Assembly (NCBI GenBank): GCA_033854115.1
Contig: JAWOKS010000002.1
Coordinates: 9,984-73,983, forward strand
Source: Thermoplasmata archaeon
GTDB lineage: Archaea; Thermoplasmatota; Thermoplasmata; Lutacidiplasmatales; UBA184
DNA: 64,000 nucleotides
Direction of reading: 5' to 3'
The notes under the pieces were generated by a model. The model made no database searches, was not told the origin of the DNA, and worked only from the letters and a program-made list of their open reading frames with translations. Of the stretch, positions 7,791 through 60,851 are shown one piece after another. The first letter of the stretch is position 1. The number at the start of each line of letters is the position of its first letter. Position numbers and translations under genes: made by a program.

Positions 7791-9323
7791 GTGCGGGTCG
7801 CGCTGGACCGGCGCGACCCGCTCGAGGTCCGTCCCGACGTCGTCGTGACCGGGCTGTTCGAGCGCGGCGAGGGGGAGGCCCCGGTCCCCGAGCTGCTCCG
7901 CGCGGACGACGTGGCGACCGCGGGCGCGCTCCGCGCCGCTTGGATCCGCCACGAGCTCAAGGGGAAGCGGAAGGAACTGACGATCATCCACCGGCCGGGC
8001 GACGGGGGTCGCCTCGCCTACGCCGGGCTCGGGCCGCGGGGCTCGTTCTCCGCGGAAGTGGTCCGCCGGGCCGCGGCCGAGGTCGTGAAGGCCCTCCGCG
8101 GCCGCGGGGTGAAGACGGTCGCGTTTCGGCTCGCCTCGTTCGTGGCCGGCCCGGTCGGGGGGGCGGCGGCGGTGCGCGCGCTCGCCGACGGGGCGACGCT
8201 CGGCGGCTACGAGTTCGTCCGCTACAAGGAGTCGCGCGACCCGGGCGTCGAGCAGGTGACGATCGGCCTCGGACCGAGCTTCGCCCGGGACGAGCCGACG
8301 CTCGCCGCGGCGCTCTCCGAGGAGATGACGATCCTCGGCGTGACGCTCTGGACGCGCGAGATCGCGAACCTGCCCGCGGACACGGCGAGCCCCGCGTTCC
8401 TCGCGACGCAGGCCGAGGGCCTCGGGCGCGAGCTCGGCCTCCAGGTGACGGTGTTCGATGAGCGGCAGCTGGCCGAGATGGGCTGTGGGGGCCTCCTCGC
8501 CGTCGGCGGCGGGTCGGCCCATCCCCCGCGGATGGTCGTCCTCGACTACCCCGGCCAGGGCCGGCCCCCGAAGACGGTCGCGCTCGTCGGGAAGGGGATC
8601 ACGTTCGATTCCGGCGGGATCTCGATCAAGGCCGCGCCCCAGATGGCGAACATGAAGTTCGACAAGTCCGGCGCGGTCGCGGTCCTCGGGGCGGTGCGCG
8701 CCGCCGCGCTCCTCAAGGTGCGTCCGCGCGTGGTCGGCGTCCTCTGCTGCGCGGAGAACGTGCCGAGCGGGACGTCCTACCGCCCGGGCGACGTCGTCCG
8801 GACGTTCAGCGGCCGGACGATCGAGGTCCTGAACACGGACGCGGAGGGGCGGGTGGTCCTCGCGGACGGGCTCGGCTACGTCACGAAGACCGTGAAGCCG
8901 GACGTCGTGATCGACCTCGCGACCCTCACCGGCGCCGAAGTGGTCGCGCTCGGCGACGACACCGCGGGGCTCATCTCCACGGACGAGCCGCTCGCGCGGG
9001 CGCTCCTCGCGGCGAGCGCGGTGACGGGCGAGCCGGTCTGGCGGATGCCGCTCACCGACTACCACCGCGAGCTCGTGAAGAGCGACGTCGGCGACGTCCG
9101 CAACTCGACCGAGATCACGGTCGCGGGGATGCTGACCGCGGCCGCGTTCCTCGAGAAGTTTGTCGACGGGCGGGCGTGGGCCCACCTGGACATCGCCGGC
9201 CCGGCCTACACGACGCTCACCACCCGCAAGTACCAGCCGGCGTACCAGAACTTCGGCGCGACCGCCTTCGGTGTGCGCCTGCTCGCCCGCTACCTCCTCG
9301 ACAGCGGCTCCTCGGGGAGCTAG
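7791..9323 (+). CDS. pepA: leucyl aminopeptidase (M17 family)
   Basis: GTG start just after the sepF stop. Motifs VGKGITFDSGGISIK and NTDAEGR. Confidence 0.9.
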   Translation: MRVALDRRDPLEVRPDVVVTGLFERGEGEAPVPELLRADDVATAGALRAAWIRHELKGKRKELTIIHRPGDGGRLAYAGLGPRGSFSAEVVRRAAAEVVKALRGRGVKTVAFRLASFVAGPVGGAAAVRALADGATLGGYEFVRYKESRDPGVEQVTIGLGPSFARDEPTLAAALSEEMTILGVTLWTREIANLPADTASPAFLATQAEGLGRELGLQVTVFDERQLAEMGCGGLLAVGGGSAHPPRMVVLDYPGQGRPPKTVALVGKGITFDSGGISIKAAPQMANMKFDKSGAVAVLGAVRAAALLKVRPRVVGVLCCAENVPSGTSYRPGDVVRTFSGRTIEVLNTDAEGRVVLADGLGYVTKTVKPDVVIDLATLTGAEVVALGDDTAGLISTDEPLARALLAASAVTGEPVWRMPLTDYHRELVKSDVGDVRNSTEITVAGMLTAAAFLEKFVDGRAWAHLDIAGPAYTTLTTRKYQPAYQNFGATAFGVRLLARYLLDSGSSGS

Positions 9324-24003: not shown

Positions 24004-24615
24004 GTGATCCTCGACCAGTTCCGCATCGGCCCGTACCTCAACTTCACCTACCTCGTCCTCGACCGGGAGGGAGGGACCGGGTTCGTCATCGACCCGTCCT
24101 ACGGGATCGACGCCGTCCTCCACGCGATCGACGGGCGTGCGGTGAAGGTGCGGTACGTGCTCAACACCCACAGCCACCCGGACCACATCGCGGGCAACGG
24201 CGAGGTCGTCGAGCGGACCGGCGCGAAGGTCGTCGCCCACCGGGCGGTGCCGTTCCACCCCGACGTGGCGGTCGACGAGGGCGACATTGTCGAGGCGGGC
24301 GATCTCCGCGTGAAGGTCCTCCACACCCCGGGCCACACGAAGGACAGCGTTCTCTACCTCTTCGAGGGCCACGTCGCGACCGGCGACACGCTCTTCGTCG
24401 GAGAGTGCGGCCGCACCGACCTTCCCGGGGGCGACCCCGCCGAGATGTACGATTCGCTCCTCCGCCGCATCGTCCAGCTCGACGATGCGCTCGTCGTCCT
24501 CCCCGGGCACGATTACGGGGTCACGCCGACCTCCACGATCGGTCGCGAGAAGCGGGAGAACCCCACGCTCCAGCCGCGGACGAAGGAGGAGTTCCTGCGG
24601 TTCCTCGCGGAGTGA
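24004..24615 (+). CDS. MBL-fold metallo-hydrolase (glyoxalase II-like)
   Basis: NTHSHPDHIAGN (HxHxDH), HTPGHT, and GDTLFVGECGRTDLPGG. Confidence 0.85.
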   Translation: MILDQFRIGPYLNFTYLVLDREGGTGFVIDPSYGIDAVLHAIDGRAVKVRYVLNTHSHPDHIAGNGEVVERTGAKVVAHRAVPFHPDVAVDEGDIVEAGDLRVKVLHTPGHTKDSVLYLFEGHVATGDTLFVGECGRTDLPGGDPAEMYDSLLRRIVQLDDALVVLPGHDYGVTPTSTIGREKRENPTLQPRTKEEFLRFLAE

Positions 24616-24620
24616 GCGGG

Positions 24621-25151
24621 ATGAGCCCCCTCCCCCCGCCCGAGGAACGCAACCTTTGGGCCGTCGGCGCCCGACGGGCCGCCCCGGGAGAGCCGTCGAT
24701 CGCCGAGCTGGTCGCGACCCTCCGAGGTCTCGGGGGCGAGCGCGCCGAGCTCGTCGCGCTGCTCGATGCCGACGCGGTCGCCGGCGAGCGCCATCTCCTT
24801 TCGGCCTGGGCCCATCTCGGCCGGTACCGGGCGCGCGGGCTCACCCGTCTGCGCGACCGGGCGGCCGAGTTCCTCCTCTATGTCGCCGGCGACGACCAGC
24901 TCCCCCGGGCCCTCGCGAAGGCGGGGATCGGAGAACGGACCGAGCGGTTCGTGCTGGTCGCCGAGCGTCCGTGGGCGCCGGCCGAGCTCCTCGAGCGCTT
25001 CCGCCTCGTCCCGGACCCCGAGGCGTACCCCCGGCCGGTCACGGAGGAGCTGCTCGAGCGGCTTGGGATCACCGCCGCCGAGCGCTCGGGCGTGCCCGCG
25101 AGCTCCTGGGAGGGGCTCGTGCTCGAGCGCGTCGCGCTCCTCGATCTCTAG
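24621..25151 (+). CDS. cgi121: KEOPS complex subunit Cgi121
   Basis: ATG inside the track ORF. LDADAVAGERHLLSAWAH...EFLLYVAGDDQLPRALAKAGI...LVLERVALLDL parallels the M. jannaschii Cgi121 layout. Confidence 0.7.
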   Translation: MSPLPPPEERNLWAVGARRAAPGEPSIAELVATLRGLGGERAELVALLDADAVAGERHLLSAWAHLGRYRARGLTRLRDRAAEFLLYVAGDDQLPRALAKAGIGERTERFVLVAERPWAPAELLERFRLVPDPEAYPRPVTEELLERLGITAAERSGVPASSWEGLVLERVALLDL

Positions 25152-25224
25152 CCCGCTTCCGCGAACGGCTCGACGCCAAAGGCTTTCCCCCGGAAGCGGG
25201 TCGCCCGCCGTTCGCGGGGTCCGT

Positions 25225-25327
25225 GCAGGTGTAATCTAGTGGTAGGATGTCAGCCCTCCAAGCTGACTACCCGGGTTCGAAACGACGGGCCCGAGCGGCG
25301 CCCGTCGCGGGGCTCCCGGCACCTGCA
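25225..25327 (+). tRNA. tRNA-Gly(UCC) with a 32-nt BHB intron in the T-loop (59/60)
   Basis: Acceptor GCAGGTG/CACCTGC with A73, D-arm ATCT-AGTGGTA-GGAT, anticodon arm TCAGC-CCTCCAA-GCTGA, T-stem CCGGG/CCCGG. The spliced T-loop is TTCGAAT. No CCA is encoded. Confidence 0.75.
25282..25313 (+). other. tRNA-Gly intron (bulge-helix-bulge, position 59/60)
   Basis: CCGGG-TTCG-[AA|A]-CGACGGGC...GCCCGTCG-CGGG-[GC|T]-CCCGG. Two 3-nt bulges flank a 4-bp helix, with cuts after the second bulge nucleotide. Confidence 0.65.
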
Positions 25328-25884
25328 TCCGGCCCTGCGGACCCCCGGCCGGGAGGATGGGGCCGGTACGGCGCCGGTTCCGGAGCGCGCTGCGCGTGCT
25401 TCTCACCCTTCACGTGGACCGTGACACCGATCCCGCCCGAACGTGCTCAGCGATGTCCCGCCGAGGCGGAGCGAACTCCATCGGTTTCGTGCCCGGTCTC
25501 CTCGTCCTTCTCGGGGGGTGTGGTCGCGTCCCGCCTCAGGGTCCGCGCGAACGGGTCGGCGGCCTGGGCGGTGGGCGCGGTGGGTAGGGCGCGGGTGGAT
25601 CTCGCCGCCGGGGACCTCGGGTTCCTCTTCCGATCACCTCGCGCCCGAGGCGCTTCGGGGGCGGGCCGCCGGCCGACTGGCGCCTTGCGCCGGATCGTGG
25701 GGAGGATCCTGGCCCGGGCCCCGCTCGGGGGCTTGGTCGTGAGCACCCTCGGCGGGATCCGTCCGGTCGTGACCAGGTCCGTCCTGCCGTCCGAGAGCCT
25801 CGACCTCGAACCGTTCGGACGAGGGAGAGGGCTCTTCCACCGCGGCCCGCTCTGAGCGCGTGCGGGCAGGGCCTCGGTCGGAGG

Positions 25885-39361: not shown

Positions 39362-40242
39362 GGCTCGCCTACTACCCGGGGTGCGTCGCCCAAGCGTCGG
39401 GCAAGGAGCTCGACCTCGCGACCCGCTGGGTCTGCAAGGCCGTCGGGATCGAGCTCGTCGAGTTCCCGAAGTTCTCCTGCTGCGGCTCGGGGTTCGTCGA
39501 CGAGGCGAACGAGGCGCTCAACGTCGCGATCAACGCGCGGAACCTCGCGATCGCCGAGGCGGCGGGGCTCGACGTGCTCACGATCTGCTCGACGTGCCAG
39601 GGGATGCTCACGCTCGCGAACCTCCGCCTGAAGGACCCCGCGGTCCGCGCGAAGGTCGACCCCGCGCTCGCCTCGATCGGGCTCCGCTACCAGGGGTCGG
39701 TCAAGGTCACCCACCTCCTGCGGGTCCTCGTCGAGCAGGTCGGCCTCGACGCGCTGCGCGCGAAGGTCCGCCGGCCCCTCGCGGGCCTCAAGGTCGGGGC
39801 GTTCTACGGCTGCCACCTCCTCCGTCCGGCGGACGAGATGGGCGTGGCCTCGGGGGAGGAGCCGCACGACTTCGAGGACCTCCTCGCCGTGCTCGGCGTC
39901 GAGCCCGTGCTCTACCGGGGCCGCGTGATGTGCTGCGGCTTCCCGATCCAGTTCGTGAAGGCGGAGACGGCGGGGCGGATCGCGGCCCGCCAGATCCTCG
40001 ACGCGAAGGACCACGGCGCGGACGCGATGGCGACCCCCTGCCCGCTCTGTCACATCTCGCTCGACACCTACCAGGCCCCGGCCGCGAAGGCCGCCGGCCG
40101 CCCGCTCGGGATGCCGGTCTTCCACCTGCCGCAGCTCGTGGCGCTCGCCCTCGGGGCGGCCCCCGAGGAGCTCGGACTCGGCCGCCACATGATCGACCCC
40201 CGACCGGTCCTCGCCAAGGTCGCGGCCCCCCGTTCGGGCTAG
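39358..40242 (+). CDS. CCG-domain subunit (HdrB/SdhE-like) of a non-classical SDH/fumarate reductase
   Basis: ATGA overlap with sdhB. YYPGC...FSCCGSG and FYGCH...VMCCGFP form two CCG domains. Confidence 0.8.
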   Translation: MRLAYYPGCVAQASGKELDLATRWVCKAVGIELVEFPKFSCCGSGFVDEANEALNVAINARNLAIAEAAGLDVLTICSTCQGMLTLANLRLKDPAVRAKVDPALASIGLRYQGSVKVTHLLRVLVEQVGLDALRAKVRRPLAGLKVGAFYGCHLLRPADEMGVASGEEPHDFEDLLAVLGVEPVLYRGRVMCCGFPIQFVKAETAGRIAARQILDAKDHGADAMATPCPLCHISLDTYQAPAAKAAGRPLGMPVFHLPQLVALALGAAPEELGLGRHMIDPRPVLAKVAAPRSG

Positions 40243-60813: not shown

Positions 60814-60851
60814 CGAGCCGCTCCGCGCGGGGTGCGCGGACGCTCCGGAGC
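60814..60851 (+). other. tRNA-Lys intron 2 (T-loop 59/60, canonical hBHBh')
   Basis: GGGGG-TTCG-[AA|C]-GAGC...GCTC-CGGA-[GC|T]-CCCCC, with an internal hairpin TCCGCGC-GGGGT-GCGCGGA. Confidence 0.65.

What the first reader, a model, noticed from the sequence alone, without database searches (positions are those of the whole stretch)
25225..25327. tRNA-Gly(UCC) with a T-loop (59/60) BHB intron
GCAGGTG...CACCTGC-A forms a perfect acceptor stem only if 32 nt (25282-25313) are removed from the T-loop. The insert folds as CCGGG-TTCG-[AAA]-CGACGGGC...GCCCGTCG-CGGG-[GCT]-CCCGG, that is two 3-nt bulges around a 4-bp helix. Symmetric cuts regenerate the T-loop TTCGAAT. The D-arm and the discriminator base are Gly-like.
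Basis: partly seen in the sequence, partly recalled or inferred. Interest (0 to 1): 0.6.

Follow-up and report, generated by a model that had tools for sequence, protein, structure and literature searches.

The report
Glycine tRNA gene with T-loop intron
This is a real glycine tRNA gene of an uncultured soil archaeon, interrupted by a 32-base intron in its T-loop; the intron type is known, but here it is fixed across an archaeal order whose only splicing enzyme is of a type said to handle only anticodon-loop introns.

Summary
The observation and the reading both hold. Window 25225-25327 encodes tRNA-Gly(UCC), split by a 32-nt intron (25282-25313) between tRNA positions 59 and 60. The precursor forms a strict helix-bulge-helix-bulge-helix motif. 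Cutting after the second base of each 3-nt bulge gives a 71-nt product that ARAGORN calls tRNA-Gly(UCC). Its T-arm and 3' end match naturally intron-less orthologues, which score 62-64 bits on Rfam tRNA.

It is not a decayed copy. It is the genome's only conventional UCC isoacceptor. An interrupted T-arm of this gene is found in 162 of 186 genomes of the order; a backwards-pattern control found none. Thirty-five orthologues keep the bulges and the 4-bp helix in frame, while the inner helix changes by compensatory substitutions at 7 of 8 pairs. The uninterrupted form occurs only in a sister family.

The genome encodes one two-unit (alpha'2-type) splicing endonuclease without the specificity-broadening loop, and an RtcB ligase. 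Splicing itself is inferred, because no RNA data were available.

The kind is known: 59/60 introns occur in Thermoproteales and ARMAN-2. The host, a Thermoplasmata lineage near Ca. Lutacidiplasmatales, and its narrow-type enzyme are unusual. The scan had already noted the same layout in this window's tRNA-Lys (e1-4823623, e1-4823625). Tallies include unpublished genomes G019, G188 and G189.

The parts
25178..25186 (+). AT-rich promoter-like box (AAAGGCTTT), 39-47 nt upstream of the mature 5' end; likely BRE/TATA element
   Evidence: In 35 orthologues the stretch -50 to -41 is 60-79% A+T, against 13-29% around it; consensus about AAAGCATTAA. Its function as a promoter is inferred.
25225..25281 (+). 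5' exon of tRNA-Gly(UCC), tRNA positions 1-59: acceptor 5' strand, D-arm, anticodon arm (anticodon TCC at 25257-25259, C33 at 25256), T-stem 5' strand and T-loop bases 54-59
   Evidence: About 97% identical among the same-length genus orthologues (30 of the 33 distinct sequences).
25276..25279 (+). Exon strand of the central 4-bp BHB helix H (TTCG, T-loop positions 54-57); pairs with 25308-25311
   Evidence: 97.7% of cells paired across 32 orthologues, with variation only U-A/U-G.
25280..25282 (+). 5' bulge (AAA); predicted cut between 25281 and 25282
   Evidence: The first two bases are AA in all 35 fetched same-genus orthologues (exon A58, A59; genus g26 has AT). The third base, the first of the intron, is A or T there and any base across the order.
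25282..25313 (+). 32-nt intron
   Evidence: Its excision is required for a tRNA call. Length is 28-34 nt in genus orthologues, and the sequence is free apart from pairing.
25283..25307 (+). Intron hairpin h2: CGACGGGC (25283-25290) paired with GCCCGTCG (25300-25307) around a 9-nt loop
   Evidence: 7 of 8 pairs show compensatory double changes; 83% of cells paired against 33-46% in slid registers.
25308..25311 (+). Intron strand of the central helix H' (CGGG)
   Evidence: It is CGAA, CGGA, CGAG or CGGG in orthologues, always complementary to TTCG.
25312..25314 (+). 3' bulge (GCT); predicted cut between 25313 and 25314
   Evidence: The third base T (exon U60) is invariant; the first two, the last bases of the intron, vary freely.
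25314..25327 (+). 3' exon: U60, T-stem 3' strand, acceptor 3' strand, discriminator A73; no encoded CCA
   Evidence: Matches the 3' ends of the intron-less orthologues except one acceptor-stem position in L038/L041.

Best explanation
Window 25225-25327 is the functional gene for tRNA-Gly(UCC) of a high-GC soil archaeon (class Thermoplasmata, near Ca. Lutacidiplasmatales). It is interrupted by a 32-nt protein-spliced (BHB) intron between tRNA positions 59 and 60.

Proposed mechanism:
1. Transcription starts downstream of a conserved AT-rich box about 40-50 nt upstream, giving a precursor with a short leader (inferred).
2. In the precursor the 5-bp T-stem is extended by a 4-bp helix between T-loop bases 54-57 (UUCG) and the intron's 3' segment (CGGG). 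Two 3-nt bulges on opposite strands flank this helix, and an 8-bp intron hairpin closes it. This is a strict hBHBh' motif, and its geometry copies that of the canonical 37/38 intron on the anticodon arm (shown by sequence and covariation).
3. The genome's single two-unit (alpha'2-type) splicing endonuclease cuts after the second base of each bulge (inferred).
4. RtcB joins the 57-nt and 14-nt exons into a 71-nt tRNA with T-loop UUCGAAU (inferred).
5. CCA is added after transcription, since none is encoded (inferred).

The intron carries no conserved sequence beyond what the motif needs, so it appears to be an old, fixed structural passenger with no cargo.
For: - Splice product: excising 25282-25313 turns an uncalled locus into an ARAGORN tRNA-Gly(tcc) of 71 nt. 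The Rfam tRNA model breaks exactly at the T-loop of the unspliced DNA.
- Junction: intron-less orthologues in other families of the class match the predicted spliced product from the T-stem to the 3' end (one acceptor-stem base differs in L038/L041, one T-loop base in L033/L037) and score 62-64 bits on RF00005.
- Selection on the motif: across 35 orthologues the intron stays at 59/60, the central helix H keeps all 4 pairs in 32 of 35, and the exon bases of the bulges are invariant while the intron bases vary. The inner helix has compensatory changes at 7 of 8 pairs. 95.6% of cells pair, against 33-46% in slid registers, and 0 of 500 shuffles reach the observed covariation.
- Fixation: the interrupted T-arm occurs in 162 of 186 genomes of the order, and the backwards control finds none. 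The uninterrupted form occurs only in family f2 (4 of 4) and never in the window's family. Genus g26, missed by the pattern, also has the intron.
- Necessity: it is the only conventional UCC isoacceptor in the genome, and GGA codons are in use.
- Machinery: one EndA gene whose C-terminal unit keeps the catalytic Tyr, His and Lys; RtcB at 563 bits.
- Context: Lys-UUU, Asp-GUC and Arg-UCG genes of the same genome have the same 59/60 layout.
- Expression: a conserved AT-rich upstream box.
Against: - No RNA data: splicing, the exact cut sites and the mature tRNA are inferred.
- The endonuclease lacks the Crenarchaea-specific loop. The literature says only (alpha-beta)2 and epsilon2 enzymes cut non-canonical introns (PMC5829648), and A. 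fulgidus alpha'2 EndA hardly cleaved a BHB intron placed in a D-loop (PMC3241643).
- In this genome H has two G-U pairs, and the BHB form is 8.7 kcal/mol above the unconstrained MFE.
- C33 replaces the near-universal U33. This is weakened as an objection because 22 of 35 genus orthologues and the intron-less f2 genes also have C33.
- The spliced sequence could not be scored with a covariance model here.
Confidence: 0.9

Rival explanations
1. The locus is a tRNA pseudogene: a Gly-UCC gene inactivated by an insertion in the T-loop, with decoding done by another gene.
For: ARAGORN and Rfam do not call the locus at default settings. C33 is atypical. ARAGORN reports a second 'tRNA-Gly(tcc)' on contig C28.
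Against: The interrupted gene is kept in 162 of 186 genomes of the order, exons are about 97% conserved, and the insert shows compensatory changes. No uninterrupted copy exists anywhere in the family. The C28 gene was found in none of the 36 genus relatives searched, has a tRNA-Ser-like class II body and lies in a low-GC island.
Confidence: 0.02
2. The 32 nt are not removed: the mature tRNA keeps an enlarged T-region with an extra hairpin.
For: The insert forms a stable GC-rich hairpin, which appears in the unconstrained MFE fold. There are no RNA data to exclude retention.
Against: What is conserved is the exact frame of two 3-nt bulges around a 4-bp helix, which is the endonuclease recognition motif, and not just a hairpin. 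Family f3 has 11-14-nt versions too short to form any extra arm, yet still in BHB frame. Retention would destroy the T-loop that is otherwise invariant. Endonuclease and ligase are both present.
Confidence: 0.03
3. The BHB-like fold is a chance product of a 72% GC sequence, and the intron boundaries are not those proposed.
For: The strict-motif scan finds about 45,000 BHB-like candidates in both the real and the reversed genome, so the motif alone is common.
Against: Only 1 poor tRNA call arises from excision in the reversed genome, against 10 in the real one. The boundary between invariant and variable bases coincides with the predicted cuts in all 35 fetched same-genus orthologues, and intron-less orthologues show the same junction.
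Confidence: 0.01
4. The intron is spliced as proposed but is kept for a function, for example to break up the T-arm-to-3'-end stretch that integrases use as an attachment site, or to order T-loop modification before and after splicing.
For: It is fixed across an order with no reversion in the family. Four tRNA genes share the same site. An earlier, unchecked note says tRNA-Gln is a docking site for mobile cassettes in this group (e1-1259979).
Against: There is no conserved intron sequence beyond the motif, and the four introns are unrelated in sequence. Family f2 does without it. Fixation could simply reflect the lack of any mechanism for precise loss.
Confidence: 0.15

Closest known systems
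[quoted passage not shown] 2008, as summarised in PMC4090602)
   Same: Same position, same hBHBh' motif, same predicted cuts after the second bulge base, and the same protein-only splicing by EndA plus ligase. As there, several tRNA genes of one genome share the site.
   Different: Those hosts have (alpha-beta)2 endonucleases with the Crenarchaea-specific loop and many relaxed motifs. Here the host is a Thermoplasmata lineage with one loop-less two-unit enzyme, and the motif is strict. The four introns here show no sequence similarity that would suggest recent transposition.
[quoted passage not shown]
   Same: The intron sits at the same T-loop position in an archaeon outside the Crenarchaeota.
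   Different: The ARMAN-2 motif is a relaxed hBH form cut by a three-unit epsilon2 enzyme with a specific loop. Here the motif is strict, and the enzyme is two-unit and collinear with M. jannaschii EndA.
Canonical 37/38 anticodon-loop BHB intron of Euryarchaeota
   Same: The geometry is identical when the T-arm is read as an anticodon arm: a 5-bp stem, four loop bases paired to the intron, two loop bases plus one intron base in the 5' bulge, and one exon base in the 3' bulge. Class relatives carry this canonical form in the same Gly-UCC gene (family f6).
   Different: It sits on the other arm of the tRNA, so before splicing it disrupts the T-loop/D-loop corner and not the anticodon loop.
tRNA-Lys(UUU) of the same window (earlier scan findings e1-4823623, e1-4823625)
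   Same: Same genome, same 59/60 site, same TTCGAA|intron|T frame.

Membership tests
tRNA (Rfam RF00005), isoacceptor Gly(UCC) | Cloverleaf with a 7-bp acceptor stem, D, anticodon and T arms, a 7-nt anticodon loop and T-loop UUCRANY | tested here: met
   After excision ARAGORN draws a full cloverleaf of 71 nt with T-loop TTCGAAT. The cloverleaf evaluates at -26.7 kcal/mol against an MFE of -30.4.
tRNA (Rfam RF00005), isoacceptor Gly(UCC) | Covariance-model score above the gathering threshold | tested here: inconclusive
   The unspliced locus scores 25 bits against a cut-off of 29. The spliced sequence could not be submitted to the tool. Intron-less orthologues that differ by a few bases score 62-64 bits.
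tRNA (Rfam RF00005), isoacceptor Gly(UCC) | Gly identity set of archaea and eukaryotes (A73, C2-G71, anticodon NCC) | tested here: met
   G1-C72, C2-G71, A73 and anticodon UCC, shared with the genome's Gly-GCC and Gly-CCC genes. That these are the identity elements rests on general knowledge and was not assayed.
tRNA (Rfam RF00005), isoacceptor Gly(UCC) | U at position 33 | tested here: not met
   C33 (loop CCUCCAA). The same holds in 22 of 35 genus orthologues and in the intron-less family f2 genes, so it is a tolerated lineage trait and not a sign of decay.
Archaeal BHB (hBHBh') tRNA intron | Two 3-nt bulges on opposite strands separated by exactly 4 bp, flanked by helices | tested here: met
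   The frame is kept in 32 of 35 orthologues with 4 of 4 H pairs, and with 3 of 4 in the other three.
Archaeal BHB (hBHBh') tRNA intron | Structure maintained by selection (covariation) | tested here: met
   7 of 8 h2 pairs have compensatory changes, H varies only U-A/U-G, and the slid and shuffled controls are far lower.
Archaeal BHB (hBHBh') tRNA intron | Symmetric cuts give a functional mature RNA | tested here: met
   The product equals the intron-less orthologue form.
Archaeal BHB (hBHBh') tRNA intron | Splicing endonuclease and RNA ligase encoded in the genome | tested here: met
   EndA at G000:C14 (PF01974 twice, 95.9 and 59.1 bits; PF02778 twice) and RtcB at G000:C20 (563 bits).
Archaeal BHB (hBHBh') tRNA intron | Intron actually excised in vivo | not testable with these tools
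alpha'2-type (two-unit homodimeric) EndA without a specificity loop | One polypeptide with two endonuclease units; catalytic Tyr, His and Lys in the C-terminal unit | tested here: met
   Pfam finds two N-domains and two C-domains in one ORF. The triad aligns with the AFU and MJA enzymes. No second subunit gene was found. Dimerisation was not tested.
alpha'2-type (two-unit homodimeric) EndA without a specificity loop | No Crenarchaea-specific loop or other insertion in the catalytic unit | tested here: met
   The alignment to AFU EndA is gap-free across EKGDL (174-178), while the AFU-CSL chimera needs gaps in the query. The catalytic unit is collinear with M. jannaschii EndA apart from a 2-residue gap (loop defined in PMC3241643).

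The most novel reading that the evidence does not exclude
A whole order of Thermoplasmata has kept T-loop (59/60) introns in several tRNA genes, including its only conventional tRNA-Gly(UCC) gene, across its diversification, while encoding only a loop-less two-unit splicing endonuclease. The current co-evolution model assigns enzymes of that class to canonical anticodon-loop introns only. If the enzyme does cut these sites, then one of two things follows. Either a strict BHB at 59/60 works as a second 'canonical' site open to narrow-specificity enzymes, because it copies the anticodon-arm geometry exactly. Or this enzyme, whose structural unit keeps a full C-terminal domain and which is closest to the fused Methanopyrus form, has a so far unrecognised way of accepting non-anticodon sites.
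Probability: 0.6. Interest if true: 0.5.

Novelty: new member of a known kind. Interest (0 to 1): 0.42.

Why it matters
- Annotation: ARAGORN and Rfam at default settings miss this gene. Genomes of this abundant soil and peat lineage therefore appear to lack the only conventional tRNA that reads GGA, and also Lys-UUU, Asp-GUC and Arg-UCG. That can distort completeness and codon-capacity estimates.
- Biology: reviews state that Euryarchaeota with alpha4 or alpha'2 endonucleases carry only single, canonical-position BHB introns (PMC4090602), and that only (alpha-beta)2 and epsilon2 enzymes cut non-canonical ones (PMC5829648). This order is a natural counter-example with more than 160 species-level genomes. 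Its strict motifs and compensatory evolution make the link between enzyme type and intron position directly testable with one recombinant enzyme and one minihelix.
- Evolution: it dates an intron at one site. It is present in two of the three families of the order, shrunk to 11-14 nt in one of them, and absent from the third.

Tried and rejected
- ARAGORN with its intron option (-i) gave 94 mostly spurious calls with introns of hundreds to thousands of bases, and still missed this gene. I did not use it.
- Unconstrained folding does not recover the BHB, because the thermodynamic model penalises the bulges and the two G-U pairs. I treated this as a caveat, not a refutation, since the covariation supports the BHB.
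- The first genome-contig scan, with the upstream ORF (window 24405-25151), found no relatives. The second, with the RpoB-like ORF, gave named relatives.
- My first blastn-short pass missed the distant orthologues L037-L045. They were recovered with the excise-and-rescan pipeline.
- The first order-wide pattern (RAA) missed genus g26, whose T-loop reads GAT.
- I considered the contig C28 'tRNA-Gly(tcc)' as the true Gly-UCC gene and rejected it.
- I looked for similarity among the four 59/60 introns as a sign of transposition and found none beyond the motif.
- I looked for intron cargo such as a C/D-box RNA. At 28-34 nt, with only pairing conserved, there is no room for one.
- Literature searches for tRNA introns in Thermoplasmatota or Lutacidiplasmatales found nothing specific.

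Full report
**What is in the sequence.**
- The acceptor halves GCAGGTG and CACCTGC, followed by the discriminator A, enclose a normal D-arm and an anticodon arm with loop CCUCCAA (anticodon UCC).
- The T-stem CCGGG/CCCGG has a loop enlarged by 32 nt.
- With default settings neither ARAGORN nor Rfam calls a gene here; both see only the tRNA-Ser 590 nt downstream.
- A permissive Rfam scan matches the tRNA model over positions 8-63 at 25 bits, just under the 29-bit cut-off, and the alignment fails exactly at the T-loop.
- Removing 25282-25313 gives a 71-nt sequence that ARAGORN calls tRNA-Gly(tcc), with a full cloverleaf and T-loop TTCGAAT.

**The motif.**
- T-loop bases 54-57 (TTCG, 25276-25279) pair with the intron's CGGG (25308-25311).
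- This 4-bp helix is flanked by the bulges AAA (25280-25282) and GCT (25312-25314) on opposite strands.
- The T-stem lies outside it and an 8-bp intron hairpin inside it (25283-25290 with 25300-25307).
- This is a strict hBHBh' motif. Cutting after the second base of each bulge gives the exons 25225-25281 and 25314-25327.
- The layout is the exact counterpart on the T-arm of a canonical 37/38 intron on the anticodon arm.
- In this genome the central helix has two G-U pairs. The BHB form evaluates at -42.7 kcal/mol, against -51.4 for the unconstrained optimum. That is a caveat for this one sequence.

**Is it more than chance?**
- I scanned the whole 1.75-Mb, 72% GC genome for strict BHB candidates, excised each and rescanned with ARAGORN.
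- The motif alone is common: about 45,000 candidates in both the real and the reversed genome.
- Excision created junction-spanning tRNA times in the real genome and once, a poor 95-nt call, in the reversed one.
- The real hits include this gene and the window's tRNA-Lys(UUU), which has the same junction.

**Comparative evidence.**
- All 36 same-genus genomes sampled match the locus across the intron.
- In the 35 orthologues I extracted, the insert is always at 59/60 and is 28-34 nt long. The central helix keeps 4 of 4 pairs in 32 of them. The bulges are AAA/AAT and NNT.
- The invariant bases are exactly the predicted exon bases (A58, A59, U60). The variable ones are the predicted intron bases.
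- On a MAFFT alignment whose gaps fall only in the hairpin loop and one D-loop column, 95.6% of cells pair in the full precursor structure, against 33-46% when partners are slid.
- Seven of the 8 inner-helix pairs show compensatory double changes. The central helix varies only between U-A and U-G. No shuffle out of 500 reaches the observed covariation.
- Exons are about 97% identical, while the intron sequence has changed extensively.

**The junction is independently confirmed.**
- Other families of the class have uninterrupted tRNA-Gly(UCC) genes.
- From the T-stem to the 3' end they match the predicted spliced product. L038 and L041 differ only at one acceptor-stem position, and L033 and L037 at one T-loop base.
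- They score 62-64 bits on the Rfam tRNA model.
- I could not submit the spliced sequence itself to a covariance model, so this is a proxy.

**Distribution.**
- Across 186 genomes of the order, the interrupted T-arm pattern occurs in 162: this genome, 159 of the other 179 in its family, and 2 of 2 in family f3. The backwards control gives no hits.
- The uninterrupted pattern occurs only in family f2 (4 of 4) and in no genome of the window's family.
- Genus g26 matched neither pattern because its T-loop reads TTCGAT|intron|T. All three g26 genomes examined carry the intron.
- Family f3 has mini-introns of 11-14 nt at the same site, and one of its genomes adds a 14-nt canonical intron.
- Two relatives in family f6 of the class have only a 37/38 intron in this gene.
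- The tallies include unpublished genomes: G019, and G019, G188 and G189. Without them the counts are 35 of 35 and 159 of 183. No alignment or sequence argument here uses them.

**Not a decayed copy.**
- The genome's conventional Gly set is GCC, CCC and this UCC gene. GGA codons are rare but used.
- ARAGORN's second 'tRNA-Gly(tcc)', on contig C28, is a 90-nt class II molecule. Its D-arm and anticodon stem nearly match a tRNA-Ser(UGA) of a distant relative.
- It was found in none of the 36 genus relatives searched and scores only 31 bits on tRNA-Sec. It lies in a 63% GC island at a contig end.

**C33.** This genome has C at position 33 only in this gene, in tRNA-Glu(UUC) and in the C28 gene. 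Among genus orthologues of Gly-UCC, 22 have C33 and 13 have U33, and the intron-less f2 genes also have C33. It is a tolerated lineage trait, not evidence of decay.

**Machinery.**
- One gene (G000:C14) encodes two endonuclease units in one polypeptide, and no second subunit gene was found.
- The C-terminal unit keeps the catalytic Tyr, His and Lys. It aligns without gaps to A. fulgidus EndA across the site (EKGDL) where the Crenarchaea-specific loop would sit. It is collinear with M. jannaschii EndA (loop defined in PMC3241643).
- It is therefore an alpha'2-type enzyme with no known specificity loop. Its best solved relative is the fused Methanopyrus enzyme 5x89.
- Relatives with and without the Gly intron have the same architecture.
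- RtcB is present.
- A conserved AT-rich box 41-50 nt upstream (39-47 nt in this window) fits an archaeal promoter.

**Organism.** The RpoB-like protein at the window's end is 94% identical to that of soil and peat 'Thermoplasmata archaeon' MAGs, and 87-89% identical to Ca. Lutacidiplasmatales and acid-soil MAGs. The paper describing that order used tRNAscan-SE and does not mention introns (PMC9287336).

**Comparison with what is known.**
- Position 59/60 is a listed non-canonical site (PMC4090602). It is known from Thermoproteales and from ARMAN-2 tRNA-Cys (PMC5829648). The kind is therefore known.
- What differs is the setting. Reviews state that Euryarchaeota with alpha4 or alpha'2 enzymes have only canonical-position introns (PMC4090602), and that only (alpha-beta)2 and epsilon2 enzymes cut non-canonical ones (PMC5829648). 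AFU EndA hardly cut a D-loop BHB (PMC3241643).
- Here at least four tRNA genes (Gly-UCC, Lys-UUU, Asp-GUC, Arg-UCG) have strict 59/60 introns, and tRNA-Met has a D-arm intron.
- The four T-loop introns are unrelated in sequence.
- I found no paper describing this for Thermoplasmatota in the library searched.

**Verdict.**
- This is a real, functional, intron-bearing tRNA-Gly(UCC) gene (confidence 0.9), with splicing inferred and not observed.
- It is a new member of a known kind.
- Interest is moderate, because of the order-wide fixation and the mismatch with the enzyme-type rule.
- The scan had already noted the same layout in this window's tRNA-Lys (e1-4823623) and the shared 59/60 site (e1-4823625).

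Noticed in passing
G000 contig C28:1704-1793 (+) (locus L133:205-294): A 90-nt class II tRNA-like gene. It has a perfect acceptor stem (GGGAGGG/CCCTCCC), A73, a perfect T-arm, a short variable arm, and the anticodon loop CCUCCAA (UCC, C33). Its D-arm and anticodon stem nearly match a tRNA-Ser(UGA) of a distant Thermoplasmata genome (L135). It was found in none of the 36 genus relatives searched, lies in a 63% GC island at a contig end, and has an AT-rich box upstream. It could be a Ser-type body carrying a Gly anticodon (a mistranslating or recoding tRNA) or a decaying mobile-element tRNA.
   Followed up: partly
window 25256 (tRNA position 33); orthologues L001-L030, L033-L036, L048-L052: C33 replaces the near-universal U33. 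Among 35 genus orthologues, 22 have C33 and 13 have U33, and the intron-less family f2 genes also have C33. In this genome only tRNA-Glu(UUC) (contig C25) and the C28 gene share the trait.
   Followed up: partly
G000 C49:~8657-8728 (-), C18:~39940-40040 (-), window 60814-60851: tRNA-Asp(GUC) (31-nt intron), tRNA-Arg(UCG) (26-nt intron) and tRNA-Lys(UUU) (38-nt intron) all have the same TTCGAA|intron|T layout at 59/60. The four introns are unrelated in sequence.
   Followed up: partly
G000 C65:~25476-25579 (+): A tRNA-Met(CAU) gene appears to carry a 35-37-nt BHB intron in the D-arm (after nucleotide 13 or 14). The exact frame is not resolved.
   Followed up: no
G000 C66:2616-2695 (-), C30:7094-7169 (+), C24:11714-11773 (+): The tRNA-Arg(UCU), tRNA-Glu(CUC) and tRNA-Ser(GCU) loci score low on the tRNA model and read TTCAAA followed by non-T-stem sequence. 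This suggests further T-loop introns with relaxed motifs that my strict scan did not resolve.
   Followed up: no
window 25178-25186 and the same offset in 35 orthologues: A conserved AT-rich box (consensus about AAAGCATTAA) lies 41-50 nt upstream of the mature 5' end, in otherwise 75-85% GC flanks.
   Followed up: partly
G038:C19:58475-58575 (L039), G040:C1:73879-73912: Family f3 genomes (low GC) have mini-introns of 14 and 11 nt at 59/60 in tRNA-Gly(UCC). G038 also has a 14-nt canonical 37/38 intron in the same gene.
   Followed up: partly
G000 C14:28041-29054 (-) (L031:1474-2553): The structural N-terminal unit of the endonuclease has a full-length match to the catalytic-domain family (59 bits) and keeps the aligned His and Lys but apparently not the Tyr. 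Thermoplasma acidophilum EndA (2ohc) aligns only over the last 85 residues, while the fused Methanopyrus enzyme aligns end to end. The maximal ORF has about 130 extra N-terminal residues whose status is unknown.
   Followed up: partly
G127 (C66 and C92), G163 (C24 and C26): Two genus members each hold two interrupted Gly-UCC genes with different introns. These are either true duplicates or mixed strains in the bins.
   Followed up: no
G000 C7:54-127 and C35:68196-68268; C38 and C43; C11 and C60: There are duplicate calls for Val-GAC, Lys-CUU and Ala-CGC, some at contig ends. They may be real paralogues or strain heterogeneity in the assembly.
   Followed up: no
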